In this document: in pieces, positions 38,470 to 57,514 of the stretch
How positions within the stretch are numbered: position 1 is the stretch's first letter
How the letters are laid out: the number at the start of each line of letters is the position of its first letter
Source of the DNA: Klebsiella phage KP13-16
Strand: one strand, 5' to 3'
Sequence record: OP617741.1
Length of the DNA stretch: 64,000 bases
Position numbers and translations under genes: made by a program
Notes under the pieces: model-generated
Seen by the model: the letters and a program-made list of their open reading frames with translations, nothing else
What the model was told of the DNA's origin: nothing
The model's database searches: none

Positions 38470-38481
38470 TTCTCTTCCTTT

Positions 38482-39302: not shown

Positions 39303-39348
39303 TTAACTCTCCTTTTAACCGTATCTAAAAAGCTTGTACGAATCATAG

Positions 39349-40599: not shown

Positions 40600-40640
40600 T
40601 TCAACCCCTCATTTTAAATGTGTTTCTCTCAACAAGACAA

Positions 40641-40672
40641 ACTATAAAGCTTGTCTTAGTAAAAGTCAACAT
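40641..40672 (-). promoter_or_regulatory. candidate sigma70-like promoter for the ligase operon (TTGACT-18-TATAGT)
   Basis: Read on the minus strand upstream of 40599. It overlaps a 7-bp hairpin (aagacaa...ttgtctt). Confidence 0.3.
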
Positions 40673-41037: not shown

Positions 41038-41075
41038 GCTTCCTTTTTAAACTAAAGCCCCTTTCGGGGCTAATC

Positions 41076-42053
41076 TCAAGCTTCTTTTTTCTCAGGAAAA
41101 ACCAGACTTGCAATAATACCCAAGGCCAGAGTCCCAAGCACAATACAAAGACTCACATTTGCTGAGATATCATGTGGCAAGAAAGACCATTTTGCATTTA
41201 GTGTCTCACCAAAAGGATGGTAAATCAGTTTAGCACCTACAAACACTAGAACTACAGCAACGGCTTTTTCCAGATGAACCAAGTATTTAACTGCTACACT
41301 CAGTACAAAGAACAGTGCACGGAGACCAAGAATTGCAAATAACATTGCAGAGTAAACCAGCAGAGGTTCTTGCGTCACACCAATTACAGCCGGGACAGAG
41401 TCAAAGGAGAAAATTACATCAGTAAACTCCACTACAAAGACACACAACAAAGCCGGAGTTGCATACTTGATCCCGTTCTTAATGGTGATAAATTTCTCGC
41501 CATCTAGAGCCGGATGAACAGGAAGAATCTTACCAACCAGACGAGTCGCCCAGTGTTTAGAGTAATCAACTTCATCTTCCTCATCATCACCGCCTTTGAT
41601 AATAGCCAGTGCAGACCATGCTACAATCAGACCGAACAGCACTTGGAAAAACCAGTGTAAATTAAAGATTGCCGTACCTGCTGCCACAAAGATACCTCGA
41701 AATACAATGGCACCAGCAATACCCCAAAGAAGAATCTTATGCTGTAAGTGTGTTGATTTGATCCCGAAGCTAGCGAATATTGCCATGAACACCATCAAGT
41801 TATCCACAGACAATGATTTTTCTAGCACATACCCACTCAGAAACAAAGAGGCAAATTCTTTGCCATACTCTACCCAAATAAAACCATAGTATGCAAATGC
41901 TAATGCGATCCAAAATGCAGACCAAGCCAATGCAGACTTAATACCGATCTCTTTATTTTCCTTGTGTCCAAAGAAATCTACAAGGATTGATAGTGCAAGA
42001 ACTCCAACAAGAACTGCAATATCCAGAAGGGGGAACCCAAAATGATGTGTCAC
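41076..42053 (-). CDS. terC: TerC family integral membrane protein
   Basis: Multi-TM protein carrying LSVDNLMVFMAIF, which matches the TerC SxDN signature. 325 aa. Confidence 0.75.
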   Translation of the reverse strand: MTHHFGFPLLDIAVLVGVLALSILVDFFGHKENKEIGIKSALAWSAFWIALAFAYYGFIWVEYGKEFASLFLSGYVLEKSLSVDNLMVFMAIFASFGIKSTHLQHKILLWGIAGAIVFRGIFVAAGTAIFNLHWFFQVLFGLIVAWSALAIIKGGDDEEDEVDYSKHWATRLVGKILPVHPALDGEKFITIKNGIKYATPALLCVFVVEFTDVIFSFDSVPAVIGVTQEPLLVYSAMLFAILGLRALFFVLSVAVKYLVHLEKAVAVVLVFVGAKLIYHPFGETLNAKWSFLPHDISANVSLCIVLGTLALGIIASLVFPEKKEA

Positions 42054-42081
42054 TATTTTACTCTCCTCAGTTTAAAATAAA

Positions 42082-42288
42082 TTATTTTTGCTTATCAAAA
42101 CAGTACATTGCGTTACTACCTGCATCATTATACACAATATAACAGAATTTTCCATTAATATCATCATTCATGATGTAAATCTTGTTAACAGCAGAGTAGC
42201 CGTTGTACACTCGTTCAACTGTAACGCTATCTTCAGCCATTGTCAAACTACAAAACAGGATCAGACAAAGAGCCATCATTATTTTCAT
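42082..42288 (-). CDS. small secreted protein
   Basis: Signal peptide MKIMMALCLILFCSLTMA followed by four Cys. It overlaps the Bfd-like ORF by 41 nt. Confidence 0.35.
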   Translation of the reverse strand: MKIMMALCLILFCSLTMAEDSVTVERVYNGYSAVNKIYIMNDDINGKFCYIVYNDAGSNAMYCFDKQK

Positions 42289-42439
42289 TTAACACCTCAA
42301 TTATCGTTTGTTTACATTTACCACAACAAGTGGCGACTGGTATATATCTTTGCACATCCTCTAATGACTTGCAAGAAAAATCTTTTATAACTTTTTGTAG
42401 CATTTTGTCATTAATTTTATTACAAAGACATATAAACAT
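42248..42439 (-). CDS. Bfd-like [2Fe-2S]-binding domain protein
   Basis: MFICLCN...IPVATCCGKC reproduces the CxC...CxxC spacing of bacterioferritin-associated ferredoxin. 63 aa. Confidence 0.65.
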   Translation of the reverse strand: MFICLCNKINDKMLQKVIKDFSCKSLEDVQRYIPVATCCGKCKQTIIEVLNENNDGSLSDPVL

Positions 42440-44600: not shown

Positions 44601-46721
44601 TTAAACCCTTATATGTTTTACACGTTGAACAACTTCCTGCATCTTCCCCTTGTTAAAAGGTCTACTGTTAGGTGCAGATAAGTAACCTGAGACTCTCCGA
44701 ATGACGTTGATCGTTCCTTCCTCAGTATTGCCACAATCAGGGCATTCAAAGCCTTCTGCTGTTGCTTTAAACTCTCCATGAAAGCCACACTTCAGACATT
44801 TATCAACAGGTTGATTAATCCCAAAGTAATGAATATTTTCATATCCATAGTCAATCAAAGCTTCCAAGCCTTTCATGTTATTTTTGAGATTTGGTGTCTC
44901 GACATAACCTATATTACCACCTGAACTGATAAAGTCAAACCCTGATTCAACATCCCATTTAGTAAAAGGATCAACTTGTTGGTCTACAGGAACATGGAAA
45001 GAGTTAGTCAAGTATTCTCTCTTGATAGTTCCAGGAAATTTCGCATTGATTTTACTGGCAAATTTATAACACAAAGACTCCGCTGGAGTTCCGTAGATAC
45101 CAAAACCAATACCTGTTTTCTTCTTATAAGCCTCTGCCATTTCTGACATAAGACTTAAAATCTTTTTCCCGTAAGCTTTATATTCCTCTAAACTACAATT
45201 TGGATAGAGAATTTGAATTGCTTCATATAACCCTACATAACCAAAACTTGCTGAAGCATAACCTTTGTAGAAAAGTTTGTCAATAGTTTCTTCAGGATCT
45301 AGTCTAGCTAATGCTCCTTCAACAAACATCACAGGATTTTGTTTTGCTTTAGTTCCCTTAAGGCGATTAATCCTCAACATATGTGCTTCATATGCTGTTT
45401 GCATATGCTTATAGAGTTCTTCCAGGAAAAGTTTACCACTACTGACAGAATCTTTAGCTATCATTGGTAAATTCAAAGAAACTACACCAAGATTAAATCT
45501 ACCATCATATTTCTCACCTTGTTCTGTAGCAAAATAAGAAAGGAAACTACGACATCCCATGCTAGTAACGTGACCTTTTGAAGATTTTGTAACCAGTTTA
45601 TTTCTAGGGACTGAAATAAAATCTGGGTAAATTCTTTCTGCACAACACTCCATTGCTAATTGTTTAAGGTCATAATTAGGATCACCAGGATTCATGTTGA
45701 CACCTTCTTCAAGGAAGAAAATTACTTTTGGGAACACAGGCGTTACTTTATCCTTACCTAAACCCTCTTTGTGGATTTTTAGATAGTTACGAGTAATCAT
45801 TCTACCAAATTCTGAGGTATCTAAACCAAGACTAATGGTGATAAATGGAGATTGTCCATTTACACTCATTAATGTGTTAACCTGGTAGATAAGAGTTTGC
45901 ATTGCATCGTAGACATCTTGCTCTGTAAGTTGCATTGCATTTATTTTGACTTCAGCACCAAATAAATTTCTAATAAGTTTTACATTTTTATTATAAGTCA
46001 GTTCTACATATTGCTTTAAACCTGTATCAATATGTGCGCAAGTTTGTCCACCATATTGGCTAGAGGCTACAGCCTGAATAATTTGTGTCAACACTGTAGT
46101 AGCAACACCAATTGATTTAGGTTTTTCAATGAAAGCATTTCCAATATGGAAACCATTTTCTAACATGTCTTGGTAATTAACGAGACAACAGTTGCTGAGA
46201 GGGCTGATTAGATAATCTAAGTCATGAATATGTCCAAAACCGCTTGTATGCCATTCTGAGAGGTCTTTAGGTAGTATTTGAGTCAATGCTACATGCTTAC
46301 TTAAAATCCCTGCTAAGAGGTCTCTATGAGTATTTACAACGTTACTGGGTTTGTTAGCATTCTCACGAGTAAATTCTTCTGCTGTTTGTTCTAAGAAGCC
46401 AGATATGTCATTATAAAGTTTCCCATTACCTTCACGGATTTTATCTCTGTCGTGCCTATACTCAATATAAGTTCTGGCTATGTCATATGTCTTTGGATTA
46501 GACATAAGGAAATCTTCAATCATTTTTTGAACATTTGAGACTGACTTATTCTCATTGAGATTTTTAACAATATATTCTGTAACCTCGTGAGCAACAAGTT
46601 CTGCTGTGATTGATAATGAAGAGTTAGCTAGTGCTGCTTGATATATTGCATTGTAAACTTTACGTTCATCAAATTGTTCTGTGCGCCCGTCGCGTTTTAT
46701 AATTTTATGTTGATACTGCAT
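44601..46721 (-). CDS. nrdD: anaerobic ribonucleoside-triphosphate reductase
   Basis: The ATP-cone is KIIKRDGRTEQF. The glycyl-radical loop is RVSGYL. The C-terminal Zn site is CLKCGF...CPDCGN. The start was moved to the ATG at 46721, which has a GGAGGA RBS. The listed 46748 start lies in a hairpin loop and has no RBS. Confidence 0.88.
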   Translation of the reverse strand: MQYQHKIIKRDGRTEQFDERKVYNAIYQAALANSSLSITAELVAHEVTEYIVKNLNENKSVSNVQKMIEDFLMSNPKTYDIARTYIEYRHDRDKIREGNGKLYNDISGFLEQTAEEFTRENANKPSNVVNTHRDLLAGILSKHVALTQILPKDLSEWHTSGFGHIHDLDYLISPLSNCCLVNYQDMLENGFHIGNAFIEKPKSIGVATTVLTQIIQAVASSQYGGQTCAHIDTGLKQYVELTYNKNVKLIRNLFGAEVKINAMQLTEQDVYDAMQTLIYQVNTLMSVNGQSPFITISLGLDTSEFGRMITRNYLKIHKEGLGKDKVTPVFPKVIFFLEEGVNMNPGDPNYDLKQLAMECCAERIYPDFISVPRNKLVTKSSKGHVTSMGCRSFLSYFATEQGEKYDGRFNLGVVSLNLPMIAKDSVSSGKLFLEELYKHMQTAYEAHMLRINRLKGTKAKQNPVMFVEGALARLDPEETIDKLFYKGYASASFGYVGLYEAIQILYPNCSLEEYKAYGKKILSLMSEMAEAYKKKTGIGFGIYGTPAESLCYKFASKINAKFPGTIKREYLTNSFHVPVDQQVDPFTKWDVESGFDFISSGGNIGYVETPNLKNNMKGLEALIDYGYENIHYFGINQPVDKCLKCGFHGEFKATAEGFECPDCGNTEEGTINVIRRVSGYLSAPNSRPFNKGKMQEVVQRVKHIRV

Positions 46722-46737
46722 TATTCCTCCAAAATAA

Positions 46738-46759
46738 GAAGCCAGCATTAACTGGCTTA
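46738..46759 (-). terminator. hairpin attenuator (AGCCAG-cattaa-CTGGCT) upstream of nrdD
   Basis: 6-bp stem. On the transcript it is followed by a U-rich tract and then the nrdD RBS. Confidence 0.35.
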
Positions 46760-46805: not shown

Positions 46806-47234
46806 TTAAATCAGATAAGTTTGAAGAATAGTCTTTGCTAATTGATTATCTACTGTTTTGCCAGCAGCTTTAGCAACCATGTTAATTTTACCCATGAAAC
46901 TCATAGTGATTTTATCACCATTCTGTACCGCAGTATCCAAGAAATCACGAATCTCTTCTTCACTCAACTGTGCAGGAAGATAACTTTCCATAAAAGCAAT
47001 TTCTTCTTCATACTGTTTCAGTTGTGCTTCATGACCTTCAAGACTTGCACGAGTAGATTTTACAGTAGACTTAATCAAGGCAATAGCATCTTCATCAGTT
47101 GAATTTTTATCTTGTGACAATTTTCCTAAAAGAAAGGTTAGAGTAGCAACCTTTTCTTTATCACCGGATTTACGAAAAGCAAGTTGGTCTTGTTTCATTT
47201 TCTCAATAATCATTAATATTCTCCTATTCCACAA
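46806..47234 (-). CDS. hypothetical protein
   Basis: 142 aa, helical. Confidence 0.45.
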   Translation of the reverse strand: MWNRRILMIIEKMKQDQLAFRKSGDKEKVATLTFLLGKLSQDKNSTDEDAIALIKSTVKSTRASLEGHEAQLKQYEEEIAFMESYLPAQLSEEEIRDFLDTAVQNGDKITMSFMGKINMVAKAAGKTVDNQLAKTILQTYLI

Positions 47235-47845
47235 TAAAGAGTTTCTCTTGTATTATTTAAATCTTCAGAAACTCTATTAATTTCTTTTTGTAAGATATCC
47301 TTATACTGAGGATATTTTTCTATCAAAGTTAAACCTTGATTTATATACAACATTTGCCAAGCTCTATGTGCTTCAACAGGATCTGTGAAACCATGTATGG
47401 CAATATCATGAAACCTAGCCCTATATCGAGGTACTTTCTGATATTTATTTTTCTGTTCAGAAACTCCCAATGGTAAATTATTTTTAGAGTATCTTTTTAT
47501 AATATAATTATTTAAATCTTTACCTACAAAACCACAGGTGCTTGGAGAGTATATTTTACTAACCCCAGATAAGAGATCCTTGTCCAGTTCCTTTCCTTCC
47601 CAATCTTGGGTTTCCATCCAGGCACGAAAATTACCAAATGTCAACCATTCTTCACAAACACTACAACCTTTATAAGTAGGAAATCTTCTTTGGTAATTTT
47701 CACTATAACAACGCCTTAGCATATTCGTCCAACGATCATAATATGGATCTCGCCAAAATACAACTTCTTTACCATTCATACGTTTACTTTTTTGAGTTAT
47801 ATCTTCTAGATCATTGTATCCCTTACCAAAAAGTAATTTATTCAT
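47213..47845 (-). CDS. AP2-domain / homing-endonuclease-like protein (paralog A)
   Basis: The N-terminal motif is WTNMLRRCY...YKGCSVCEEW. The C-terminus is AP2-like (RYRARF...HGFTDPVEAHRAW). Paralogous to 52239..52901. Confidence 0.45.
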   Translation of the reverse strand: MNKLLFGKGYNDLEDITQKSKRMNGKEVVFWRDPYYDRWTNMLRRCYSENYQRRFPTYKGCSVCEEWLTFGNFRAWMETQDWEGKELDKDLLSGVSKIYSPSTCGFVGKDLNNYIIKRYSKNNLPLGVSEQKNKYQKVPRYRARFHDIAIHGFTDPVEAHRAWQMLYINQGLTLIEKYPQYKDILQKEINRVSEDLNNTRETLYCGIGEY

Positions 47846-49134
47846 TACAATTCTATCTCAAGTAAGTAATCAAGTCTAACTTGACTCAGGTCAAAGACTA
47901 CAATCTCATCATTTCTCACCCCAGAGTATCCAGCCTTAGCCCAATAAGATTGGTATCCTTTTGGAGGGCGTTGACTTGTTGGTCCTGTTGGGGTATAAGC
48001 ATTTCCAACAGCCACTGAAACTAGAAACATGTAAACTTTTCCATTCCCCTGACCACCACCCGTATAATACATGTTATCACAATATTGGAGACTTTTTGAA
48101 GATTGATTTGCGAAATACAATCCTGTTGAGAACATGGCCCCTGCCTTAACACCAGGACTATCTTTAGGCATCATTAACCCTTTACAGAAAATAGATAACA
48201 AATTAGCTACACGTGTTCCGTGCCACAGTTCATGAACATTACCATACTCTGTGATAGCTTTATCAAATGGTGCTTGCTGATTTCCAAGATTAATTTTATA
48301 GATATTCTTAACTTTAGAACCCATGATGCGACCGCCGTGTTGGGCATTTTTACTTTCATTGTAGTAATTAACAATACGATCAATTGTAGCAGAATCTTCA
48401 ACATGAGAGATACCAAAATTAAAGATTTTTTCTACTTCAACTTCTTCTTTAGGTTTATCTTCCTGATTCTTTTTAAGTTCTTCAATAAGGTCTAATGTTT
48501 CCAGAAGTGCTTTACAGATTTCACGTTGTTCGTCAATGTTTTTGTGACTAAACAGCAAGTGACGTTTATCACGTGTAGTTGCAACTTTATTAGGAATAAG
48601 AACAAAATAAGAATCATTTAAAGTTAAGATCTCATCTTCACCTTTACCACTCTTTTCATATTCATCCAAAAGGGATTCAATATTACCAAGATGGATCATT
48701 GCTTCTTCCACAGCAGCTTTCTTTACAACTCCTAAAGGAGTCTTAAACAGACCATCTTTTTCATCATATTTAATGTTAGTAGAACTGGTGATATTATGGA
48801 TGTTTGCTTTAGCAATTGCTTGAATAAGATTACGACTTGTGTCGTCTTTACAATCAATTTGCTTAAGTGCAATGTCTACTACGTTAACTTTTTGAGTCAA
48901 CCCAGTTTCACCAGAGACAGCTTCTAGTTGTGCTTCTTTATAACCTTTCTTGATTTTAGATGCAACAAGACTGTCAAACTTCTTTTTACCACCAGAGTAG
49001 GAGGTAGTTTGAACCCCGCCACCTACCCGACCAAAACGAACTGCAATATTTCCAACGTCATCTAAGGTTGCTTCATAGAATTTATTGTTATTATTCTTTG
49101 AATCAAACATGATTAGCATTTTACTCTCAGACAT
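47845..49134 (-). CDS. WGR-domain poly(ADP-ribose) polymerase (PARP) catalytic homolog
   Basis: N-terminal WGR-like domain (YEATLDDVGNIAVRFGRVGGG...KGYKE). The C-terminus carries LWHGT and GAMFSTGLYFA. It continues through FLVSVAVGN to RNDEIVVFDLSQVRLDYLLEI. Together these give the PARP H-G-S/T, Y and E motifs (H-Y-E triad). Confidence 0.85.
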   Translation of the reverse strand: MSESKMLIMFDSKNNNNKFYEATLDDVGNIAVRFGRVGGGVQTTSYSGGKKKFDSLVASKIKKGYKEAQLEAVSGETGLTQKVNVVDIALKQIDCKDDTSRNLIQAIAKANIHNITSSTNIKYDEKDGLFKTPLGVVKKAAVEEAMIHLGNIESLLDEYEKSGKGEDEILTLNDSYFVLIPNKVATTRDKRHLLFSHKNIDEQREICKALLETLDLIEELKKNQEDKPKEEVEVEKIFNFGISHVEDSATIDRIVNYYNESKNAQHGGRIMGSKVKNIYKINLGNQQAPFDKAITEYGNVHELWHGTRVANLLSIFCKGLMMPKDSPGVKAGAMFSTGLYFANQSSKSLQYCDNMYYTGGGQGNGKVYMFLVSVAVGNAYTPTGPTSQRPPKGYQSYWAKAGYSGVRNDEIVVFDLSQVRLDYLLEIEL

Positions 49135-49154
49135 TTCACCCCCTGTTAAGTGAA

Positions 49155-49176
49155 TAAAAGGGCTTTCGCCCTTAAA
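49155..49176 (-). terminator. hairpin (AAGGGC-tttc-GCCCTT) overlapping the upstream stop, before the PARP RBS
   Basis: Perfect 6-bp stem, followed by a GGGGGTG RBS and the PARP ATG. Confidence 0.35.
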
Positions 49177-49609
49177 GTTTTTCGAGAAGTTTCAACACAG
49201 CTTCTTTATCAAGAACAGTTGAACCGAGGAGTGCTTCAACCTCTTCAATTTGGAATACATCTCCAAGTTGGTGGGTATTGACTGGAGGACGGATCTTATC
49301 TTTGTGGTTCAGAAAAAGATCTTCTTCAAATCCATCTCGAACATATTTCCCTTTCAAATCTGTAATTTCAACAAGCTTAATCAACTTATGAAGTTTTTCA
49401 ACACGAAACTCAGGTGCTACTTTAGCTTCAACTTCTTCACGGAGGTCATCCAAAGAGCTTCGAACAGTATCAAGTTTCTCATAAACTTCTTCAAAGAAGC
49501 TAGAATCTAAAATATATTCCATATCTTTAAGAAACTCTTTGGGAGAGTTTTCAGCATACTCTTTAAGATCTTCAAACCAATCATTAATTTTATCAAACAG
49601 TGGATTCAT
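49172..49609 (-). CDS. hypothetical protein
   Basis: 145 aa, acidic and helical. Confidence 0.45.
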   Translation of the reverse strand: MNPLFDKINDWFEDLKEYAENSPKEFLKDMEYILDSSFFEEVYEKLDTVRSSLDDLREEVEAKVAPEFRVEKLHKLIKLVEITDLKGKYVRDGFEEDLFLNHKDKIRPPVNTHQLGDVFQIEEVEALLGSTVLDKEAVLKLLEKL

Positions 49610-49636
49610 AAATTACTCCTCTAATTAGTACTACAA

Positions 49637-49996
49637 TTATACCTTTTCAAAATCAATATCATCGCAATCGTTGACATCTTCATAAACGTCACCAAAGTCT
49701 TTAATTGCATCTTTAATAATCTCCATATAGATTTGGTGGTCTCCCCAGTGACCTATGCTAAAGATAATCTTCTCCCCATCATAAATCTCTTTATAATCTA
49801 CAGAACATGAGTGTGTCATAAAGATGATCCTAGACTCTTTTGCAGTAACAAAACCTAACCAAAAATGGTTAAAATCTGAGGTAGAAATTTCTCCTTTAAT
49901 TCGAGTGAAATCTCGTAGAGCAGAATACACTGCCCCATAAACTTCTAAAGCTTTATCTTTTGAACAACAAACAAACACTTTATGATCAACACTCAC
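49637..49996 (-). CDS. hypothetical protein
   Basis: 119 aa. Confidence 0.45.
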   Translation of the reverse strand: MSVDHKVFVCCSKDKALEVYGAVYSALRDFTRIKGEISTSDFNHFWLGFVTAKESRIIFMTHSCSVDYKEIYDGEKIIFSIGHWGDHQIYMEIIKDAIKDFGDVYEDVNDCDDIDFEKV

Positions 49997-50008
49997 AATA
50001 TGCCTCCC

Positions 50009-50656
50009 TTAAAAGGTCTGATTTAGCTCCGTTAGAGTCATAACAGAACCTTCTTGAGTCAGAATAAACTCATTGTCTCCAACAGAGTCAAGAGTATAAC
50101 TTCCTTTTGGTGTTTTTACAAGGAAAGAATCCACATTTACAGTAGTGAAACCAAAAGAATTTTCCTCAAAATATCCATTTTTAACCTCTGGAGTCAAACC
50201 AATGCAGATAGCATCACCTTTAACACATAAAGCTTTTACATTTTTAATGGTATATTTTTCACCTGTTGAATAGTAAACGGTAATGTCAGTTTTCTTACGA
50301 ACTGGGACTGGTTTACGCTTCTTGTGAAAACGTGGTTTTGCTACTTTAATTTCTTTATTCATTTCTTCTCCTAAAAGTGCATTAACAAATTCTTCTGGTT
50401 TAACATAATAGTATTCATTATTAGACATGGCATCTAAGTGCCATCCGGTGAGTGTAGTCCCGGCATTATGACTTACAAGACACCATATATCTTTTTCATC
50501 ATAACTATTGAAATTATTGAAAAATCTAATAAAATCTTTATAACTCCAGTCTTCTGAAACATCAAGAGAAAGAAATATTTTTCCTAAAATACTACGATAA
50601 TTATCTTCACCATAAAATTTAACAAATTCATTTTTTAAAACATAGCCTTTATACAT
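50009..50656 (-). CDS. hypothetical protein
   Basis: 215 aa. Confidence 0.45.
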   Translation of the reverse strand: MYKGYVLKNEFVKFYGEDNYRSILGKIFLSLDVSEDWSYKDFIRFFNNFNSYDEKDIWCLVSHNAGTTLTGWHLDAMSNNEYYYVKPEEFVNALLGEEMNKEIKVAKPRFHKKRKPVPVRKKTDITVYYSTGEKYTIKNVKALCVKGDAICIGLTPEVKNGYFEENSFGFTTVNVDSFLVKTPKGSYTLDSVGDNEFILTQEGSVMTLTELNQTF

Positions 50657-50775
50657 ATTCTATTTACCTATACGATCAATTAAAGTTAAGTCCAATACCA
50701 CCGGAAGGAATAACAACCATCCAGGATAATCTTCTTGAAATAAGTGTCTTAAGACAATATAACTAATTACTGTAA

Positions 50776-51705
50776 TCACTTCTTATCTCCACTTTTACTT
50801 TTCATAATAGAGCTTAAAGATACAAGCGGGGTTTTGGGTACAGGTTTCTTTCTAGGGACATAATTTTTGACAAATGGATTAAGATTTTTAGCAATCTCTG
50901 GGATGGACATTCCTAAGAGTTTGCTTGCTTCTACCATTTTTGATCCCACCTCTTTTCCTACAATTACCATGTTATCTTTAGTATAACCTTGGGTTTGGTC
51001 TAACAGGATAAAGACTTTTTGAGACAGTTCAATTGTCTCTCCTGTTAATTTGCACTTAGTTCCTGAAAACTTAGCTTTAAACTCTGCAAAACTAACTGTA
51101 AACTCTTTCTTTTCCGCAGAGGCATGTTTAGCCATATCAGAATAGTAAGAGGCAATGCGTACATCTGGGGCAATCTGTTTATCTGACATCTTCAGGACTC
51201 CTTGATCATTACGGGATAGTTCAATTTTTTGTGTTAAGACACCATTCAAGTTATCATAAAAATTTGTATAGTCAATATCTTTAAAATAATTTTTATAAAC
51301 ATTAGATTCAAATTTAATTAAATGGTTGTATTTATAAGATAAAAACTTTTTATACCCTGGTGTAACTTTCTCTTGAACCACTCTCAAGATTGCTTCAGAT
51401 GTTTCATTGATCCTTACTACTTGTACTTCGGTTTTGTCAAGAGCATAATCTTTTATTCTATTTACTGCTGCTGAAGTTAAACAAACATTCCCTCGTTCAT
51501 AACCGAGTTTATCATCTAAACGTTCAATGGATATCTTATGTTTATCCTCATCAAAGGTAACACCAGTATAATCACACTTACCGTCATTCCGTAAGAAAAG
51601 TACTTTCATATCTTCAAGGGTTAATTTGAAATCAATACCACGCTTCCTGGCATCTTTTTTCTTAGATTCAAAACGTTTTTTGAGTTCTTGTTCGTCTAAC
51701 TTCAT
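50776..51705 (-). CDS. tandem HNH-like (His-Me finger-like) domain protein, possible homing endonuclease
   Basis: Two repeats of C..TG......I...LD...GY...N pattern (CDYTGVTF...SIERLDDKLGYERGNV; CKLTGETI...ILLDQTQGYTKDNMVIV). The catalytic His is not evident. Confidence 0.3.
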   Translation of the reverse strand: MKLDEQELKKRFESKKKDARKRGIDFKLTLEDMKVLFLRNDGKCDYTGVTFDEDKHKISIERLDDKLGYERGNVCLTSAAVNRIKDYALDKTEVQVVRINETSEAILRVVQEKVTPGYKKFLSYKYNHLIKFESNVYKNYFKDIDYTNFYDNLNGVLTQKIELSRNDQGVLKMSDKQIAPDVRIASYYSDMAKHASAEKKEFTVSFAEFKAKFSGTKCKLTGETIELSQKVFILLDQTQGYTKDNMVIVGKEVGSKMVEASKLLGMSIPEIAKNLNPFVKNYVPRKKPVPKTPLVSLSSIMKSKSGDKK

Positions 51706-51714
51706 ATAGACCTC

Positions 51715-52230
51715 TTATTTGATCACAGTGGCATTTTCAGGGATTTCAGCTTCATCAAGTACATAGATGGTAACATTGTACCCGGCTTCACACAATGTCT
51801 TTTTGATAATATCTTCAACAGAAGACCACTCTGCTCCTCCAAGACCTGCACCAAGTTTGGGAAGTCCAATTTTAAGATCCTGATTTTCAAAAAGCATTAG
51901 CTGTTTAGACATAGCTTTGAAAGAAGATTCAAGCTTATCTAAATCTGTATTTGGTTTTCCATCCTCACGTTTCCACCAACCCCACCGTCCGTATAAATTA
52001 TAAATACTTAAATTATACAATGGAGAATGGGCATATGAGAAATCTCCAAATTTTTTAGGGTCTCCTTTAATAGTTGAATCATCTGCAATAGCGACTTCCG
52101 GGAAAGCTTTATCTAAAAGTGGGGCAATCCCACGTTTACGTGCATTAAAACAGTTACATTGTTGTGCAATAACATTTACTTCTCCACTTTTTGCAGCCAA
52201 TAACAAATCCATCACTTTATATTTCAACAT
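51715..52230 (-). CDS. macro domain protein (ADP-ribose binding/hydrolase)
   Basis: VNVIAQQCNCFNARKRGIAPLL corresponds to the macro VNAAN...GGGV motif. LKIGLPKLGAGLGGAEW corresponds to the second macro motif hhFPxIGxGxxG. 171 aa. Confidence 0.65.
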   Translation of the reverse strand: MLKYKVMDLLLAAKSGEVNVIAQQCNCFNARKRGIAPLLDKAFPEVAIADDSTIKGDPKKFGDFSYAHSPLYNLSIYNLYGRWGWWKREDGKPNTDLDKLESSFKAMSKQLMLFENQDLKIGLPKLGAGLGGAEWSSVEDIIKKTLCEAGYNVTIYVLDEAEIPENATVIK

Positions 52231-52238
52231 ATTACCCC

Positions 52239-52901
52239 CTATAATTTTAATGTCTCTCTATTTAAACTTATATCTTCTTTTATATCTTGGATCCTATCAA
52301 GTAAGGCAGTTTCAACAACCTTATTAAAGTGTGCAGATTCTTTATATTTTTGTAAGCTTTCCTTGATTGCAATAATTTTATAATCTTGCCACTGTTTATG
52401 AGCAAGGTCTGGTGAGTTATGATAACCTAGATAAACAATCTTACCAGATACATGACAATAAGCTTGGAACCTATCCCTATGATGAGGCTTTTTCTTCTTT
52501 TTAAGACTTACCCCTAGTGGGAGGTGTCCTCTTGCAGATCTACTATCTGTTAATAGGCAGTTAATATAGTTCGGAACCATAACGCAAGTCTCTTTACTAT
52601 AAAGCTTATTACCTTTAATTAATATATCCTTATCAATGCATAAATTATCAAAATCCTTAGATATGGCCCAAGCTTTAAAATTTGAAAAGTATTTCCACTC
52701 TTCACTTACAGTACAACCTTCATAGACAAAATAATATGGATCTTTTTGTTTTAAATTATAACATCTTCTAAGAATGTCTTTCCATCGGCTATATATCGGA
52801 CAGAGCCAAATTTGCTTCCATTTACCATCTTCAAATCTATTTATAGAGACAGGGTCTACACTATCATTAATGCCATAGTTATGTACAAGTTTTTGTTTCA
52901 A
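52239..52901 (-). CDS. AP2-domain / homing-endonuclease-like protein (paralog B)
   Basis: WKDILRRCY...YEGCTVSEEW, with a C-terminal AP2-like segment (HRDRFQAY...LGYHNSPDLAHKQW). Paralogous to 47213..47845. Confidence 0.45.
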   Translation of the reverse strand: MKQKLVHNYGINDSVDPVSINRFEDGKWKQIWLCPIYSRWKDILRRCYNLKQKDPYYFVYEGCTVSEEWKYFSNFKAWAISKDFDNLCIDKDILIKGNKLYSKETCVMVPNYINCLLTDSRSARGHLPLGVSLKKKKKPHHRDRFQAYCHVSGKIVYLGYHNSPDLAHKQWQDYKIIAIKESLQKYKESAHFNKVVETALLDRIQDIKEDISLNRETLKL

Positions 52902-52915
52902 TCAAATCTCCAACT

Positions 52916-53299
52916 TTATAGACTAACTTGTTCTGCATCCTTCATCTCCATAAGTTTATCTAAATAATCTTTTGCCATCTTCTTATAATCTTCCGGGAAG
53001 TATTCACGATAGTAGTCTTCAAGAAGCATCATGATGCTTGGCTCTGGTCCACTTTCAATACTTGCACATTGCGGGCGCAAGTCGAAGAAATTCTTTTCTT
53101 TCTGTAACTTTGCTTCTTCGATTAACTTATCAACTTCTTTAATTTCAAGTTTAATCTTATGACAAGTTTTACTGAAATAACTTTGATCCATCTTTTTCCT
53201 GTTCACCGAACATTTTCGAAAGGAATGCAAATCTCTGATAAGTTCATTTCTAAAATTATTCAAAGCTATAACTAGTTTTTTGTTTTTATTCATTACCAA
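52916..53299 (-). CDS. hypothetical protein (family X copy 1)
   Basis: FRNELIRDLHSFRKCSVNRKKMDQSYFSKTCHKIKLEIKEVDKLI is paralogous to 55683..55958. Confidence 0.45.
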   Translation of the reverse strand: MVMNKNKKLVIALNNFRNELIRDLHSFRKCSVNRKKMDQSYFSKTCHKIKLEIKEVDKLIEEAKLQKEKNFFDLRPQCASIESGPEPSIMMLLEDYYREYFPEDYKKMAKDYLDKLMEMKDAEQVSL

Positions 53300-53532
53300 G
53301 GTGCCTCTTCTAATTGGGAATGGGAGATGCCCATCATATCTGCCAGATCGTCTTTTGTCAACAATTTTCTTTCAAACAAATTTGTAACCAGCAAAACAAA
53401 CATCTCACCTACGTTATTATTAGATTGCTCTAATAGTAACTGCTCAAGGTTAAAAGTTTTAGTATCACTATAATCCTCATTCGTAAGGAAGAAATGCTTT
53501 TGTTGTGGGTTTAGCATAGGTCTTTTCCTCAA
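53293..53532 (-). CDS. hypothetical protein
   Basis: 79 aa; it overlaps neighbouring genes. Confidence 0.3.
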   Translation of the reverse strand: MRKRPMLNPQQKHFFLTNEDYSDTKTFNLEQLLLEQSNNNVGEMFVLLVTNLFERKLLTKDDLADMMGISHSQLEEAPW

Positions 53533-53758
53533 ATCTCAGTTCGCCGTTAAGTTTTTCAATTCTATGTGGGAGAACATCCTGGCCCCACCAAGGCTTTTCA
53601 TGAATACGATAACTCCAGACTGTCATGAAAGAGTCTTCTTCAGTGCCTTCTCCTTTGATTCTAACAGTCTTATTATAGATATCCCGGATAGTAGCTTCTA
53701 TCCCATCTACTAAGACAATCTCATGAATTCTGTAAGGCATCTGGTATTCATTAGTCAC
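53477..53758 (-). CDS. hypothetical protein
   Basis: GTG start at 53758 with GGAG 7 nt upstream. It overlaps the NadR stop as GTGA (translational coupling). The listed longer start would overlap NadR by 58 nt. Confidence 0.35.
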   Translation of the reverse strand: MTNEYQMPYRIHEIVLVDGIEATIRDIYNKTVRIKGEGTEEDSFMTVWSYRIHEKPWWGQDVLPHRIEKLNGELRFEEKTYAKPTTKAFLPYE

Positions 53759-55356
53759 AAATATGCTCCAAGAATATGTTCTGAATAAACCTCTTCTAGA
53801 AAATCTTCCCAAAATTCCTTATCTACTGAAGAAGGATAATGAGAGTTTTCTGCTAAAATTTCAACTTCCTGTACAACCTTCTCAAGTTCTTCCTGAACCT
53901 CATTGAAAGGCATGTTACCAGTCTTAACAGATAAAATCAAGGGATTTTGTTCCATAGGATAAACAAGATCACCATGCTTATAAATGTTAATAAGTTGATA
54001 TCCACCACGAAGAGCGTGGCTCAGAGCTTTCCAATCCACACCTTGATTAGCCTCAGCCAAACGTGCTCTATCGCCATATTCTTCCCACAGTTTAAATAAA
54101 GACGTCTTCATTTCTTTTACTGAGACTGTTTGTTGAAACTTTCTTCCAAGAACTTCATAAAAGATTTGATTTACACCATTTTTATCCGTAGCAAAGATCC
54201 AATATGCAAACTCATTGAGTGGAAAATATTCTTTGAAATCACCAACCTTTTTAGAATCATCTATTGTTTTAATACATTCTACAACTTCACGTAATGCTGC
54301 AAGCCTGGAGCCTTTAATTCCATACTTAGATGCTTGTTTCCTTACATAACCAAAAAGCCCTGTCAGCTTTTTAGTATAAAAACGGTGACGATTGTCACGA
54401 ATATATTGCCACGTTTCAGAATTGGTTACGAGCTTACTATCTGTATCTTGCAAACGGAGAGGATCAGCCACCCACTCAACTTCTGGGGAAAGGTATAGCA
54501 CCATGTCGTAGAAGTTATGAGCTTCTTCAACAGCCAACGACATAAACATACCATCATTGTAGCTCACTTTACCAGCACAAATTGCAGAAAAATGTGTTAT
54601 AAGATTGGTTGTATCTGAAATATGCACCACATGTGCCTGATTTGAGTTACTAAATTCCTCAATACGGTGGATCATAGCAATCTTAAGATATGCTTCACGA
54701 TCCATTAAAAATTCACTGCCATTGTACATCTGTTCGCAAATATGCCGCCCTACTTCGGGTGTTGATGTTGTTCCATAGTGCTGTGCTAGAAGCTCAGTCA
54801 TAGTGGATTTGCCAGTGCTCTCAACACCAATGATAGCTACACGTTTTACAAAACGAGGACGAGCTTGATCTGAAAGATACTCGAAGTTATCACGTAGATT
54901 AGTACGAATACGTGTTGCAGAGATATCCACTCCTGTACGCTCTGCATCCAACACAACATGCTCCACCTCTGGGAAATGCTCAGAGAAGTACTCAGTATAC
55001 TCCGGCTCAGAAGAGAAAGCATGTGTCAACACTTCCCCTTCTGGGATTTTAGCACGAATCAACTCAGCATAAGCCTTACCACCTTCTGGATAACCAGGAA
55101 TATCAGACTCATCCACATAATCTACAATCACTTTGTGTTGTAACCCTGAGTCTTGAATTAAAGATTTAAGATCCAATAAACGCTGGGTTAAACCTAGACG
55201 GTCTTGCATCCAAGGTGTTTGAGTGTCGTTAAACTTCTGGTCAAACGACAGAAACAGGTATAGCCGATCAATACCTGAATCTACAGCCATACGAATGAAG
55301 TTGACGTGTCCTGCTGTCAGGGGTGCAAATTTACCTAAAATTAAGCCTACGTTCAT
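53755..55356 (-). CDS. NadR-like bifunctional NMN adenylyltransferase / ribosylnicotinamide kinase
   Basis: The N-terminal GKFAPLTAGH matches the GxFxPxHxGH NMNAT motif. The central Walker A segment IIGVESTGKST resembles the NadR RNK domain (GGESSGKS). 533 aa. RBS AAGGAG. Confidence 0.75.
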   Translation of the reverse strand: MNVGLILGKFAPLTAGHVNFIRMAVDSGIDRLYLFLSFDQKFNDTQTPWMQDRLGLTQRLLDLKSLIQDSGLQHKVIVDYVDESDIPGYPEGGKAYAELIRAKIPEGEVLTHAFSSEPEYTEYFSEHFPEVEHVVLDAERTGVDISATRIRTNLRDNFEYLSDQARPRFVKRVAIIGVESTGKSTMTELLAQHYGTTSTPEVGRHICEQMYNGSEFLMDREAYLKIAMIHRIEEFSNSNQAHVVHISDTTNLITHFSAICAGKVSYNDGMFMSLAVEEAHNFYDMVLYLSPEVEWVADPLRLQDTDSKLVTNSETWQYIRDNRHRFYTKKLTGLFGYVRKQASKYGIKGSRLAALREVVECIKTIDDSKKVGDFKEYFPLNEFAYWIFATDKNGVNQIFYEVLGRKFQQTVSVKEMKTSLFKLWEEYGDRARLAEANQGVDWKALSHALRGGYQLINIYKHGDLVYPMEQNPLILSVKTGNMPFNEVQEELEKVVQEVEILAENSHYPSSVDKEFWEDFLEEVYSEHILGAYL

Positions 55357-55383: not shown

Positions 55384-55412
55384 ATCTTAGATTACTATTA
55401 AGTAATTGTCAA
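55384..55412 (-). promoter_or_regulatory. sigma70-like promoter upstream of the NadR-like gene (TTGACA-17-TAAGAT)
   Basis: Read on the minus strand. A consensus -35 and a good -10 are spaced 17 nt apart, about 25 nt upstream of the RBS and ATG. Confidence 0.55.
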
Positions 55413-55682: not shown

Positions 55683-55958
55683 TTAAGGCAGTGGAAAGTA
55701 AATTGTGTTGGACTCGTAATCGTAGTAGTATTGTATTCCAGTTTCACGAGATACACGTAGCGCCAGCTTAACTCCTGCAATGAGTTTGTCCATTTCAGCA
55801 ATCTCTTTACGGAAGCGTGTTACTGTGTGAGAGAATGCACTATGTGGCACCCATTTACGGTTTACACGATCACGTTTGAAGTGACGGAAATCTTCAATGA
55901 CGTTATTGCGCTGTTTACGCAGTACAGCCATCAGGTGGTAATACGGATGTTTGTTCAT
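55683..55958 (-). CDS. hypothetical protein (family X copy 2)
   Basis: RNNVIEDFRHFKRDRVNRKWVPHSAFSHTVTRFRKEIAEMDKLI is paralogous to 52916..53299. Confidence 0.45.
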   Translation of the reverse strand: MNKHPYYHLMAVLRKQRNNVIEDFRHFKRDRVNRKWVPHSAFSHTVTRFRKEIAEMDKLIAGVKLALRVSRETGIQYYYDYESNTIYFPLP

Positions 55959-56814: not shown

Positions 56815-57137
56815 TCACCTCCTTTAGGGATGTATTGCGGCATAGGCATGTATGCCACTACAGGCTCCCAGTCAAAGTAGAAACGACCATTAATCACTGC
56901 AAACTTACCACTACCACCCTGTACAACTTGGCAAACACCGTATTCCCCATCAGCCATGATGACAACCCAGTTGCCGAATGGCATGTTGTGGATACCATCA
57001 ACATCAATCCAAGGATGTTGTAAACTGTAAATCTTGTTTACGACCTCTGTGAAGTCTGGATCATACAAACCGAGGTCATGCGCAATGTTCAACAACATTT
57101 CTTTGTACAGTTCTTCACGTGTCATAGATTCAGCCAT
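56811..57137 (-). CDS. hypothetical protein
   Basis: 108 aa. Confidence 0.45.
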   Translation of the reverse strand: MAESMTREELYKEMLLNIAHDLGLYDPDFTEVVNKIYSLQHPWIDVDGIHNMPFGNWVVIMADGEYGVCQVVQGGSGKFAVINGRFYFDWEPVVAYMPMPQYIPKGGE

Positions 57138-57514
57138 TAGCGTACTTCCAAGCTTGGGATTAAGGTTTGTGGAGCAAAGATAACACGAGTGTGATCAACA
57201 CTCACCTGAGCACCATCAATTTGCTCAATGAAATAGGTGGTATCCGTAGAGAGTCCCATATAATGTTTCTTCACAGAACCGTTAGCCTTATCACGACAAG
57301 TGATGATCAGTGTACGATCAGTGCTACTGTTATCTTTCGCACAGTAACCTTCAATACGCATTAACTCTTTGTCTGTACGAGTGTTGATGAAGTGGGTGGA
57401 ACGCAACACTTCGAAGTTATCGCCAGCGGTGGCGATGTTACGACTTGCAACGTCAGCAGCTTGTTCACAACCAGCCAAACCCAAGCATAAAGCAATCAGC
57501 AGAATCTTTTTCAT
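57137..57514 (-). CDS. lipoprotein
   Basis: MKKILLIALCLGLAGCEQ combines a signal peptide with the lipobox LAGC. Confidence 0.6.
   Translation of the reverse strand: MKKILLIALCLGLAGCEQAADVASRNIATAGDNFEVLRSTHFINTRTDKELMRIEGYCAKDNSSTDRTLIITCRDKANGSVKKHYMGLSTDTTYFIEQIDGAQVSVDHTRVIFAPQTLIPSLEVR

What the first reader, a model, noticed from the sequence alone, without database searches (positions are those of the whole stretch)
47213..55356. Co-located NAD+ synthesis (NadR-like), ADP-ribosyl writer (PARP) and eraser (macro) module
Three functionally linked genes lie within 8 kb on one strand. A NadR-like bifunctional NMNAT/ribosylnicotinamide kinase makes NAD+ from nicotinamide riboside or NMN. 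The PARP homolog consumes NAD+. A macro domain binds or hydrolyses ADP-ribose. They are separated only by homing-endonuclease-like and small unknown genes. This looks like a self-contained ADP-ribosylation/NAD+ homeostasis system. It may replenish NAD+ against NAD-depleting defences, drive phage-directed (poly)ADP-ribosylation, and reverse it or reverse host DarT-type DNA ADP-ribosylation. This gene combination is not, to my knowledge, described for phages.
Basis: inference. Interest (0 to 1): 0.85.

Follow-up and report, generated by a model that had tools for sequence, protein, structure and literature searches.

The report
Phage PARP–macrodomain pair plus broken NadR
A Klebsiella phage really does encode a PARP enzyme and an ADP-ribose-removing macrodomain that travel together in related phages, but the neighbouring "NAD-synthesis" gene is a truncated recombination chimera that sits there by accident, so this is not a self-contained three-gene system.

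Summary
The window comes from Klebsiella phage KP13-16 (Stephanstirmvirinae), and all three ORFs exist on the minus strand.

- **PARP (47845-49134):** a genuine WGR, helical and catalytic-domain PARP with an intact H-Y-E triad. PARP is rare in phages (15 of 50,697 records).
- **Macro (51715-52230):** a genuine macrodomain of the TARG1/DarG/SCO6735 class. It is unique among 93 family members in having Arg instead of the catalytically essential Gln at position 82.
- **"NadR" (53755-55356):** an in-frame chimera. NadR residues 1-308 are joined at a 9-10-nt microhomology to the C-terminal 228 residues of an RlaP nucleotidyltransferase. It lacks the last ~47 residues of the kinase domain and the RlaP active site. 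No other sequence examined has this fusion.

PARP and macro lie in one predicted transcription unit. The pairing recurs in all seven members of this PARP lineage and in an unrelated jumbo-phage lineage (LigA…PARP-DenV-macro-NADAR). It is absent from nine other viral PARP lineages. No NadR lies within 10 kb of PARP in any locus outside this window. In the closest relative, the real NAD+ salvage cluster lies about 65 kb away.

Verdict: the PARP-macro pairing is a plausible and modestly novel variant. The three-part NAD+ module is not supported.

The parts
47845..49134 (-). PARP, 429 aa: WGR (aa 6-69), helical regulatory domain (aa 102-227), catalytic domain (aa 249-429) with H305/Y340/E410
   Evidence: Pfam hits above cut-off. 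Alignment to human PARP1. The triad residues are invariant in 35 homologues. Identity is 94% to the FBKp34 protein annotated as PARP.
49172..49609 (-). w145: conserved 145-aa acidic protein, upstream of PARP in every relative of this lineage (directly adjacent in most)
   Evidence: Found upstream of PARP in L001, L002, L050, L051, L053 and L056 at 31-98% identity. Only 14 representatives exist among 1.84 billion proteins. The model has pLDDT 88.6 but no fold match. No family hit.
49637..49996 (-). w119, unknown function (phrog_15323)
   Evidence: 69-70% identical to longer (145-146 aa) homologues in FBKp34 and L053.
50009..50656 (-). w215, unknown function; conserved in the block
   Evidence: 48-69% identity in L053 and L056; split in FBKp34. 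No Pfam hit.
50776..51705 (-). 309-aa Srd / endonuclease-VII-like protein; a conserved block member, not a sporadic insertion
   Evidence: phrog_3118, phrog_4592 and phrog_1400. 96% identity in L053 and 77% in L056 at the same position.
51715..52230 (-). Macrodomain, 171 aa, ALC1/TARG1/DarG/SCO6735 class, stand-alone; carries Q82R at the catalytic position (codon 51985-51987, changed base 51986)
   Evidence: PADLOC DarG, 3e-8, macro part only. Q82R is shown.
52239..52901 (-). HNH-like (phrog_953) gene: a variable insertion between w127 and macro
   Evidence: Present in FBKp34 and absent in L053/L054, where w127 abuts macro.
52916..53299 (-). w127: small protein whose C-terminal ~50-aa motif lies directly upstream of macro in PARP-bearing relatives
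   Evidence: phrog_14778 on its N-terminal half.
53333..53361 (-). Best sigma-70-like promoter match (TTGACA-17-TATGAT, 11/12); predicted start of the w127...macro...PARP...YqeY unit
   Evidence: It coincides with the promoter annotated in FBKp34. This is a consensus match only, and the total number of sites in the region is not above chance.
53755..55356 (-). In-frame chimera, 533 aa: NadR aa 1-308 (54433-55356) fused to RlaP C-terminal 228 aa (53755-54441)
54432..54441 (-). Recombination junction: 9-10-nt microhomology GATAGTAAG(C), shared by the donor NadR and the recipient RlaP
   Evidence: Three-way DNA alignment and a 10-nt overlap of the blastn segments.
55384..55412 (-). Promoter-like site (TTGACA-17-TAAGAT, 10/12) directly upstream of the chimera; a separate unit from macro/PARP
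   Evidence: consensus match only.
47213..47845 (-). HNH-like (phrog_953) gene: a variable insertion downstream of PARP
   Evidence: Replaced by an unrelated 155-aa gene in FBKp34 and absent in L053. A 45% identical homologue occupies the same position in L050.
46806..47234 (-). YqeY-like protein, last gene of the predicted unit; a terminator-like hairpin follows at 46739-46758
   Evidence: Pfam PF09424. Terminator scan. FBKp34 annotation.

Best explanation
The 8-kb stretch contains two unrelated things side by side.

(1) A conserved transcription unit runs from a promoter-like site at about 53,350 to a terminator-like site at about 46,750. Its gene order is w127, [HNH], macro, Srd-like, w215, w119, w145, PARP, [HNH], YqeY.
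- The PARP has the minimal DNA-break-sensing architecture (WGR, autoinhibitory helical domain, catalytic domain) and an intact H-Y-E triad. By inference it is activated by DNA ends in the infected cell. It would then use NAD+ to mono- or poly-ADP-ribosylate itself, other proteins, or possibly DNA ends.
- The macrodomain belongs to the TARG1/DarG/SCO6735 class, which removes ADP-ribose from thymidine in DNA and from Glu/Asp in proteins. It is a backbone gene of many large myoviruses. By inference its main job is to strip ADP-ribose adducts from phage DNA or proteins, as an AdfM-like orphan antitoxin against DarT2-type defence. Where a PARP is present, the macrodomain is kept next to it and may also trim PARP products.

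(2) Upstream, with its own promoter-like site, lies an evolutionary accident. A patch of about 3.1 kb from a KP2025/KP13-26-like phage replaced the local sequence. The left crossover used a 9-10-nt microhomology inside two unrelated genes. This fused NadR (aa 1-308) in frame to the tail of RlaP.
- The product keeps an intact NMNAT domain and may still adenylylate NMN.
- It lacks the last helix-strand-helix of the ribosylnicotinamide kinase domain.
- It lacks the RlaP catalytic motif.
- It lacks the PnuC transporter gene that accompanies NadR in the donor lineage.

Shown: gene identities, the chimera, Q82R, synteny and distribution. Inferred: all enzymatic activities, targets and the PARP-macro coupling. 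I put the coupling at about 50%.
For: Identity of the window:
- It is phage KP13-16, by exact protein look-up.

PARP:
- Domains and triad.
- WGR-HD-CAT bacterial PARPs are active, and the Herpetosiphon enzyme is DNA-dependent (PMC8120803).
- Yarrowia-genus PARPs are among the closest named homologues, at 57% identity over 61% of the query. Y. lipolytica Pyl1 is an active PARP (PMC12412787).

Macrodomain:
- Fold and class.
- Class activity on T-ADPr DNA and Glu/Asp-ADPr protein (PMC9411070).
- The phage macrodomain AdfM counters DarTG2 (PMC13309987).

Linkage:
- Macro lies 1.5-5 kb upstream of PARP in 7 of 7 members of this PARP cluster.
- It lies 0.1-2.5 kb downstream on the same strand in 20 of 22 members of an independent jumbo-phage cluster, next to DenV-like and NADAR genes and with LigA upstream.
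- Both genes lie between one promoter-like and one terminator-like site.

Chimera:
- 0 of 2,203 phage records cover at least 80% of the protein.
- It is the only 533-aa protein among the 40 members read of a 68-member cluster; most listed members are 355 aa.
- The protein alignment switches parent at DTDSK.
- The DNA alignment shows the microhomology.
- RlaP is intact at 318 aa at this position in L053/L054.
- The donor lineage has a 355-aa NadR followed by PnuC.
- The patch is 87-96% identical to KP2025/FKP3, with FBKp34-like sequence on both sides.
Against: - No biochemical or expression data exist for any of these proteins.
- The macrodomain is in 662 phage records against 15 for PARP. Nine of 11 viral PARP clusters have no macro or PARG within 4 kb. 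The pairing may therefore be inherited synteny in only two lineages.
- In PARP-less relatives the macro gene sits next to RNA ligase or helicase genes, which points to other roles.
- The KP13-16 macrodomain has Arg at the position where Gln is essential in SCO6735 (Q85A and Q85E are inactive). It may be inactive in this phage, which argues against an indispensable eraser role here.
- Promoter and terminator calls are consensus matches, and their overall number is not above chance.
- The rest of the KP13-16 genome was not available. The presence of the canonical NadV-Prs-NadR-PnuC cluster is extrapolated from FBKp34.
Confidence: 0.6

Rival explanations
1. NadR, PARP and macro form one self-contained NAD+/ADP-ribosylation homeostasis module: NadR replenishes NAD+, PARP consumes it and macro erases the product.
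For: All three genes lie within 8 kb on one strand. The NMNAT half of NadR is intact, with the TxGH and ISAT motifs and Walker A and B. PARP does need NAD+.
Against: - The adjacency exists only in this genome and arose by a microhomology crossover that truncated NadR.
- NadR has a separate promoter-like site.
- No NadR lies within 10 kb of PARP in 43 IMG/VR loci or in the six relatives examined.
- The lineage's salvage cluster lies elsewhere.
- No NadV, Prs or PnuC is present in the window.
Confidence: 0.07
2. PARP and macro are functionally unrelated neighbours. The macrodomain is a backbone counter-defence or RNA-repair enzyme: an AdfM-like anti-DarT2 factor, or a processor of ADP-ribose-1''-phosphate from NAD-dependent RNA repair. 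PARP is an independently acquired host-takeover enzyme that happened to land in the same plastic early-gene region.
For: - The macro family occurs in 662 phage records, almost all without PARP.
- In Vequintavirinae the macro gene overlaps an RNA ligase 2 gene, and in Shewanella phage 1/40 it precedes a RecD-like helicase.
- RNA ligase, AAA and RlaP genes lie near macro in L050, L051 and L053.
- Nine of 11 PARP clusters lack a nearby macro.
- Iyer et al. argue that phage macro domains mostly target soluble ADPr derivatives (PMC9503650).
Against: - The same macro family sits beside PARP in two independent PARP lineages despite rearranged flanks.
- A gene that occurs about once in a 140-400-kb genome would rarely fall within 5 kb of PARP twice by chance. 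This is a rough estimate, not a computed test.
Confidence: 0.3
3. The module is decaying in this phage. The Q82R macrodomain and the truncated NadR::RlaP are non-functional remnants, and only PARP remains active.
For: - Q82R is unique among 93 family members and lies at a residue whose mutation kills SCO6735 (PMC9411070).
- The chimera lacks the end of the RNK domain and the RlaP active site.
Against: - Both ORFs are intact and in frame.
- TARG1 and DarG carry a basic residue (Lys) at the equivalent position, so Arg may be tolerated.
- The substitution is a single base and could be a sequencing error or a recent laboratory mutation.
Confidence: 0.25

Closest known systems
Bacterial and eukaryotic WGR-HD-CAT PARPs (Herpetosiphon aurantiacus PARP, C. 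difficile CD160 PARP, human PARP1-3 core, Yarrowia lipolytica Pyl1) and the phage 'PARTs' catalogued by Iyer et al.
   Same: Same three-domain architecture and H-Y-E triad. 44-57% identity to fungal PARPs. Phage PARPs such as XacN1 BBA65562.1 are already noted in PMC7824862, and that protein is 34% identical to this one.
   Different: The gene is phage-encoded in a 137-kb Klebsiella myovirus and no activity or target is known. In bacteria the usual partner is PARG (PMC8120803). Here no PARG-like gene was detected, and the neighbour is a TARG1/DarG-class macrodomain.
AdfM (PhiKZ gp104), DarG2 macrodomain, SCO6735, Bt_1257, human TARG1 (ALC1-like macrodomain class)
   Same: Same fold and class. 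It is stand-alone like AdfM and SCO6735. The family consensus has Gln at the SCO6735 Q85 position.
   Different: It lacks the DarG C-terminal DarT-binding domain. The KP13-16 allele has Arg82 instead of Gln or Lys. Activity on DNA-ADPr, protein-ADPr or soluble ADPr derivatives is untested.
NadR (H. influenzae 1LW7, L. lactis 6GYE) and phage NadR (KP13-26, KP2025); phage NAD+ salvage (NadV with NadR/NadM)
   Same: The N-terminal 308 aa are 94-95% identical to phage NadR. They contain the NMNAT motifs, Walker A, Walker B and the lid.
   Different: There is no HTH domain. The last ~47 aa of the kinase domain are replaced by 228 aa of RlaP. There is no adjacent PnuC and no NadV in the window.
Writer-eraser gene pairs: bacterial PARP-PARG operons, SirTM with Zn-macro, DarT-DarG
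   Same: An NAD+-using transferase is encoded next to an ADP-ribosyl hydrolase and the two are probably co-transcribed.
   Different: The genes are not strictly adjacent; 2-5 genes lie between them. The hydrolase is far more widespread than the transferase. There is no evidence of a toxin-antitoxin relationship.
RlaP (RNA-ligase-associated Pol-beta nucleotidyltransferase, PF10127)
   Same: The C-terminal 228 aa are 99% identical to RlaP of FBKp34-like phages.
   Different: The N-terminal ~90 aa carrying the GS...DxD catalytic motif are missing.

Membership tests
PARP (PF00644, ARTD clade) | Catalytic domain profile match above the curated cut-off | tested here: met
   82.5 bits against 26.7
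PARP (PF00644, ARTD clade) | H-Y-E catalytic triad (the Glu is needed for chain elongation) | tested here: met
   H305, Y340 and E410 align with PARP1 H862, Y896 and E988. They are invariant in 35 homologues.
PARP (PF00644, ARTD clade) | WGR and helical regulatory domains (the DNA-break-activated PARP1-3 type) | tested here: met
   PF05406 30.8 bits and PF02877 34.7 bits, both above cut-off
PARP (PF00644, ARTD clade) | NAD+-dependent (poly)ADP-ribosylation, stimulated by DNA | not testable with these tools
   Needs an enzyme assay
Macrodomain, ALC1/TARG1/DarG class | Macro fold (alpha/beta/alpha with a six-stranded sheet) | tested here: met
   AF2 pLDDT 95. Foldseek matches to TARG1, Bt_1257, DarG and SCO6735 at E 7e-11 to 3e-8.
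Macrodomain, ALC1/TARG1/DarG class | Pfam Macro (PF01661) match for the protein itself | tested here: not met
   No hit at E<=0.01. Many homologues at 42-57% identity do carry PF01661.
Macrodomain, ALC1/TARG1/DarG class | Catalytic residue at the TARG1 K84 / DarG K80 / SCO6735 Q85 position | tested here: not met
   The window has R82 (CGG). It is Q in 70/70 homologues and 22/22 locus-encoded copies, including FBKp34 (CAG).
DarG antitoxin (NF048014 / PADLOC DarG) | C-terminal DarT-binding domain and an adjacent DarT | tested here: not met
   The protein is 171 aa and matches only positions 1-145 of the 329-position DarG model. The NCBIfam score is 27 against a cut-off of 250. No DarT gene is nearby.
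NadR bifunctional NMNAT/RNK | NMNAT domain with the (H/T)xGH and ISxT motifs | tested here: met
   GKFAPLTAGH and ISATRIR align to 9x6f and 1LW7
NadR bifunctional NMNAT/RNK | Complete RNK P-loop kinase domain | tested here: not met
   Walker A, Walker B and the lid are present, but the match ends at 291/325 of TIGR01526 (165.7 bits, below the 341 cut-off) and 135/164 of AAA_28. The last 47 aa of the 355-aa parent are replaced.
NadR bifunctional NMNAT/RNK | N-terminal HTH repressor domain (trifunctional enterobacterial NadR) | tested here: not met
   The NF005988 match starts at profile position 65
RlaP nucleotidyltransferase (PF10127) | N-terminal Pol-beta NTase catalytic motif | tested here: not met
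   Only phrog_388 positions 119-338 of 351 are present. The GS...DxD segment seen in FBKp34 gp100 is absent.
Phage NAD+ salvage / reconstitution cluster (NadV + Prs + NadR/NadM + PnuC) | NadV (NAMPT) with partner genes in the locus | tested here: not met
   tblastn of FBKp34 NadV, Prs, PnuC and Sir2 and KP2025 PnuC against the window gave no hits. In FBKp34 the cluster lies at 109-116 kb.
PARP-PARG operon | PARG-type hydrolase next to PARP | tested here: not met
   No Pfam hit for any intervening ORF. No PARG among the neighbours of 21 other PARP loci.

The most novel reading that the evidence does not exclude
Some large phages run a genuine PARP-based DNA-lesion system. In this model a DNA-end-activated PARP marks proteins or DNA ends. 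It is kept with enzymes that remove ADP-ribose from DNA or protein: a TARG1/DarG-class macrodomain, plus NADAR in jumbo phages. It also sits with DNA-repair enzymes, namely NAD-dependent ligase and a DenV-like glycosylase. This would be the first poly/mono-ADP-ribose signalling circuit operating in a virus-bacterium infection. The rare w145 protein, always encoded upstream of PARP in this lineage, would be a lineage-specific cofactor or regulator.
Probability: 0.2. Interest if true: 0.75.

Novelty: new variant of a known kind. Interest (0 to 1): 0.42.

Why it matters
Phage-encoded PARPs have been catalogued, but I found no experimental study of one. Their targets in a bacterial cell, which has no chromatin, are unknown.

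A PARP is held next to a DarG/TARG1-class eraser in two independent phage lineages. In jumbo phages it also sits next to NADAR, NAD-dependent ligase and a DenV-like glycosylase. This gives a concrete, testable hypothesis that links phage ADP-ribosylation to DNA-end or DNA-adduct handling and to DarT-type defences.

There is also a practical lesson. Gene proximity in mosaic phage genomes can be a one-off recombination scar. The apparent NAD+-supply gene here is a truncated chimera and should not be annotated as a functional NadR.

KP13-16 (R82) and FBKp34 (Q82) provide a natural single-residue allele pair of the macrodomain for experiments.

Tried and rejected
- **w145, the conserved PARP neighbour.** There was no Pfam, PHROG, NCBIfam or PADLOC hit. 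The word-indexed search found only 12 close homologues, and the exhaustive profile search found 14 representatives. The AF2 model has pLDDT 88.6, but Foldseek against the PDB gave nothing below E=1. Its function remains unknown.
- **Other intervening ORFs** (w215, w119, the Srd-like 309 aa, w127, w111, w79). None had an informative family beyond PHROG labels.
- **Neighbourhood enrichment.** I scanned 143 ORFs around 21 PARP loci that lack the family macro. No family recurred in more than three ORFs, and no Macro, PARG or NAD-salvage gene appeared.
- **XacN1 PARP neighbourhood.** No ADP-ribose-related gene is annotated there.
- **Literature search for FBKp34.** Nothing was found.
- **Guessing the KP13-16 GenBank accession.** The guess returned a different phage, KP13-2. 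KP13-16 is not in the phage collection, so the rest of its genome could not be read.
- **Assembly chimera between the co-isolated phages KP13-16 and KP13-26.** I considered and rejected this. The patch is only about 96% identical to KP13-26, and the junction is a 9-10-nt microhomology, too short to mislead a k-mer assembler. Read-level confirmation is still desirable.
- **The 309-aa gene as a homing-endonuclease insertion.** I considered and rejected this, because the gene is conserved in place in relatives.

Full report
**Source and layout.** Exact-sequence look-up places the three proteins in Klebsiella phage KP13-16 (137,268 bp). They are UYL04445.1, UYL04435.1 and UYL04440.1, all annotated 'hypothetical'. 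The closest record in the phage collection is the Stephanstirmvirinae phage vB_KpM_FBKp34, at 96.7% nucleotide identity over window 47,850-54,441. All genes in the finding lie on the minus strand.

**PARP (47845-49134).** Pfam finds the PARP catalytic domain (82.5 bits), PARP_reg (34.7) and WGR (30.8), each above its curated cut-off.
- Alignment to human PARP1 places H305 (LWHGTR), Y340 (GLYFAN) and E410 (NDEIVVF) on H862, Y896 and E988. These residues are invariant in 35 homologues.
- It is therefore a PARP1-3-type core enzyme with a complete H-Y-E triad.
- It is rare in sequenced phages. tblastn finds it in 15 of 50,697 records: FBKp34, 05F01, four Xanthomonas/Stenotrophomonas jumbo phages, Cellulophaga phi4:1-like phages and two uncultured phages.
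- More than 260 metagenomic homologues exist, many on contigs of about 140 kb.
- Fungal PARPs are surprisingly close, at 44-57% identity. The Yarrowia lipolytica enzyme Pyl1 is experimentally active (PMC12412787).

**Macrodomain (51715-52230).** Pfam Macro does not reach E<=0.01 for this protein, but the assignment is secure.
- Homologues at 42-57% identity carry PF01661.
- phmmer against the PDB finds Bt_1257, SCO6735, DarG and TARG1.
- An AlphaFold2 model (pLDDT 95) matches TARG1, Bt_1257, DarG, Poa1p and SCO6735 by Foldseek.
- PADLOC's DarG model matches only through its macro part.
- This places it in the ALC1/TARG1 class. Characterised members of that class remove ADP-ribose from thymidine in DNA and from Glu/Asp in proteins (PMC9411070). 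The stand-alone phage member AdfM counters DarTG2 (PMC13309987).
- SCO6735 Gln85 is equivalent to TARG1 K84 and DarG K80 and is essential for activity (PMC9411070). The matching residue is Gln in all 70 database homologues and all 22 locus-encoded copies. In the window it is Arg82.
- This is the only amino-acid difference from the FBKp34 protein and results from CAG to CGG at window position 51986.

**The 'NadR' ORF (53755-55356) is a chimera.**
- PHROGs splits it into an NMNAT family (aa 1-318) and a 'nucleotidyltransferase' family (aa 306-532, profile positions 119-338 of 351).
- No phage record covers at least 80% of it (0 of 2,203). The N-terminal part matches the 355-aa NadR of KP2025/KP13-26 at 94-95% identity. 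The C-terminal part matches FBKp34 gp101 at 99.6%.
- The protein alignment switches parent at DTDSK308. The DNA alignment shows the shared string GATAGTAAG(C) at window 54432-54441.
- In relatives L053/L054 an intact 318-aa RlaP (PF10127) occupies this position.
- Local blastn shows the window is FBKp34-like up to 54,441, then KP2025/FKP3-like (87-96% identity) to about 57,680, then FBKp34-like again. A patch of about 3.1 kb was therefore imported.
- The product keeps the NMNAT motifs, Walker A, Walker B and the lid. The lid lies at about residues 304-318 in L. lactis NadR (PMC7221760).
- It loses everything after the lid. It also lacks the RlaP catalytic N-terminus and the PnuC gene that follows NadR in the donor lineage.
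- It is the only 533-aa protein among the 40 members read of a 68-member cluster; most listed members are 355 aa.

**Anatomy of the region.**
- The two strongest sigma-70-like matches on the coding strand lie directly upstream of the chimera (55412-55384) and upstream of w127 (53361-53333). The second coincides with a promoter annotated in FBKp34. A terminator-like hairpin follows YqeY. These are consensus matches only.
- Macro and PARP thus fall in one predicted unit and the chimera in another.
- The two phrog_953 HNH-like genes are presence/absence polymorphisms among near-identical genomes.
- The 309-aa Srd/EndoVII-like gene, w215, w119 and w145 are conserved block members in close relatives.
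- w145 lies upstream of PARP in every relative of this lineage, at 31-98% identity.

**Co-occurrence.**
- I gathered 43 PARP loci from IMG/VR, together with GenBank and metagenome relatives.
- The PARPs form 11 clusters at 50% identity.
- The same macro family lies within 5 kb of PARP in 7 of 7 members of the KP13-16 cluster.
- It also lies 0.1-2.5 kb downstream of PARP in 20 of 22 members of one jumbo-phage cluster.
- In that jumbo cluster the conserved block is NAD-dependent DNA ligase, metallophosphoesterase, then PARP, DenV-like glycosylase, macro and NADAR.
- The other nine clusters show no recurrent Macro, PARG or NAD gene within 4 kb.
- No NadR lies within 10 kb of PARP in any of the 43 IMG/VR loci or in the relatives examined.
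- FBKp34 carries NadV, Prs, a different NadR (39% identical), PnuC, Sir2 and NADAR far from the PARP region. None of these has a homologue in the window other than the chimera.
- Macro (662 records), NadR-like (about 2,200) and NadV (2,046) are each far commoner in phages than PARP.
- In PARP-less phages the macro gene abuts RNA ligase 2 or a helicase.

**Interpretation.** The region is a conserved PARP-macro transcription unit next to an accidental NadR::RlaP fusion.
- I consider a functional link between PARP and the macrodomain plausible, at about 50%. The pairing recurs in two independent lineages.
- The macrodomain clearly has a PARP-independent primary role. The most likely one is removal of ADP-ribose adducts from phage DNA (AdfM/DarG2-like) or from proteins.
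- The jumbo-phage context (LigA, DenV, NADAR) suggests the common theme is handling of DNA ends and DNA adducts.
- The three-gene NAD+ homeostasis model is not supported.
- In KP13-16 both the macrodomain (Q82R) and NadR (truncated) may be impaired.

**Novelty.** Phage PARPs ('PARTs'), macro domains (41% of myoviruses) and NadR/NadV/NadM have been surveyed (PMC7824862, PMC9503650). Bacterial PARPs pair with PARG (PMC8120803). I found no description of a conserved phage PARP with an ALC1-class macrodomain (with or without NADAR) neighbourhood in the text I read. I also found no experimental work on any phage PARP. I did not read figures or supplements, so prior depiction cannot be excluded.

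**Dead ends.**
- The w145 fold search gave nothing.
- Family scans of the small ORFs were uninformative.
- A literature search for FBKp34 found nothing.
- The KP13-16 genome is not in the phage collection.

**Verdict.** Interest is moderate. The finding is a new variant of a known writer/eraser theme, joined to a cautionary recombination artefact.

Noticed in passing
window 51985-51987 (macro codon 82): A single A-to-G change (CAG to CGG) turns the otherwise invariant catalytic-position Gln into Arg. It is the only amino-acid difference from the FBKp34 macrodomain, so the two phages form a natural allele pair.
   Followed up: yes
L004:5734-7740 (Klebsiella phage FKP3): The NadR homologue is 668 aa and is annotated 'RNA ligase'. 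It carries an intein-like insertion of about 310 aa inside the kinase Walker A loop (GVES|C...FITGN|CGKST).
   Followed up: partly
window 44601-46748 versus L001:1989-5006 and L052:2818-5832: The anaerobic ribonucleotide reductase NrdD is intein-free in the window (715 aa). In FBKp34 and a metagenomic relative it is about 1,004-1,005 aa; the metagenomic copy (L052) carries an Intein_splicing domain.
   Followed up: no
L001:11744-12700 (FBKp34 gp100 + gp101): RlaP is split into a 64-aa ORF carrying the catalytic motif and a 253-aa ORF mis-annotated 'putative thioredoxin'. It is intact (318 aa) in L053/L054. This is either a frameshift or a sequencing error in FBKp34.
   Followed up: partly
window ~30,570-42,400: A Ter/tellurite-type stress cluster maps here through the FBKp34 annotation. 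It comprises TerC, vWA-TerF, two TerD genes, TelA and a ComF-like PRTase.
   Followed up: no
window 47845-49134 (PARP) versus fungal proteins P0102-P0126: The phage PARP is 44-57% identical to PARPs of Yarrowia, Smittium, Coemansia and other fungi. That is closer than to most other phage PARPs and may reflect horizontal transfer between phages or bacteria and fungi.
   Followed up: no
window 52916-53299 and 55683-55958: The N-terminal half of w127 and a 91-aa ORF in the imported patch are paralogues (phrog_14778, 42% identity). The patch therefore duplicated this small gene.
   Followed up: partly
window 52916-53080 (C-terminal part of w127); L051:3195-3380; L050:5859-6182; L002:16767-17165: A motif of about 50 aa (EPSL..L.EKYY.PHFPE.YK..AK.Y) is encoded directly upstream of the macro gene in PARP-bearing relatives. 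It is not found upstream of macro in the PARP-less phages SSBI34 and Shewanella 1/40.
   Followed up: partly
L025:5236-14096 and 19 related IMG/VR loci: One jumbo-phage lineage has a conserved block: NAD-dependent DNA ligase, metallophosphoesterase, then PARP (about 500 aa), DenV-like pyrimidine-dimer glycosylase, macro and NADAR.
   Followed up: partly
window 57137-57514: The 125-aa product starts with a lipoprotein signal (MKKILLIALCLGLAGC), although PHROGs labels its family a recombination directionality factor.
   Followed up: no
IMG/VR PARP loci among L007-L049 (alignment A5): Two ORFs near PARP carry WWE domains and two carry RING-finger domains. This suggests that some of these 'viral' contigs are giant viruses of eukaryotes rather than phages.
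   Followed up: no
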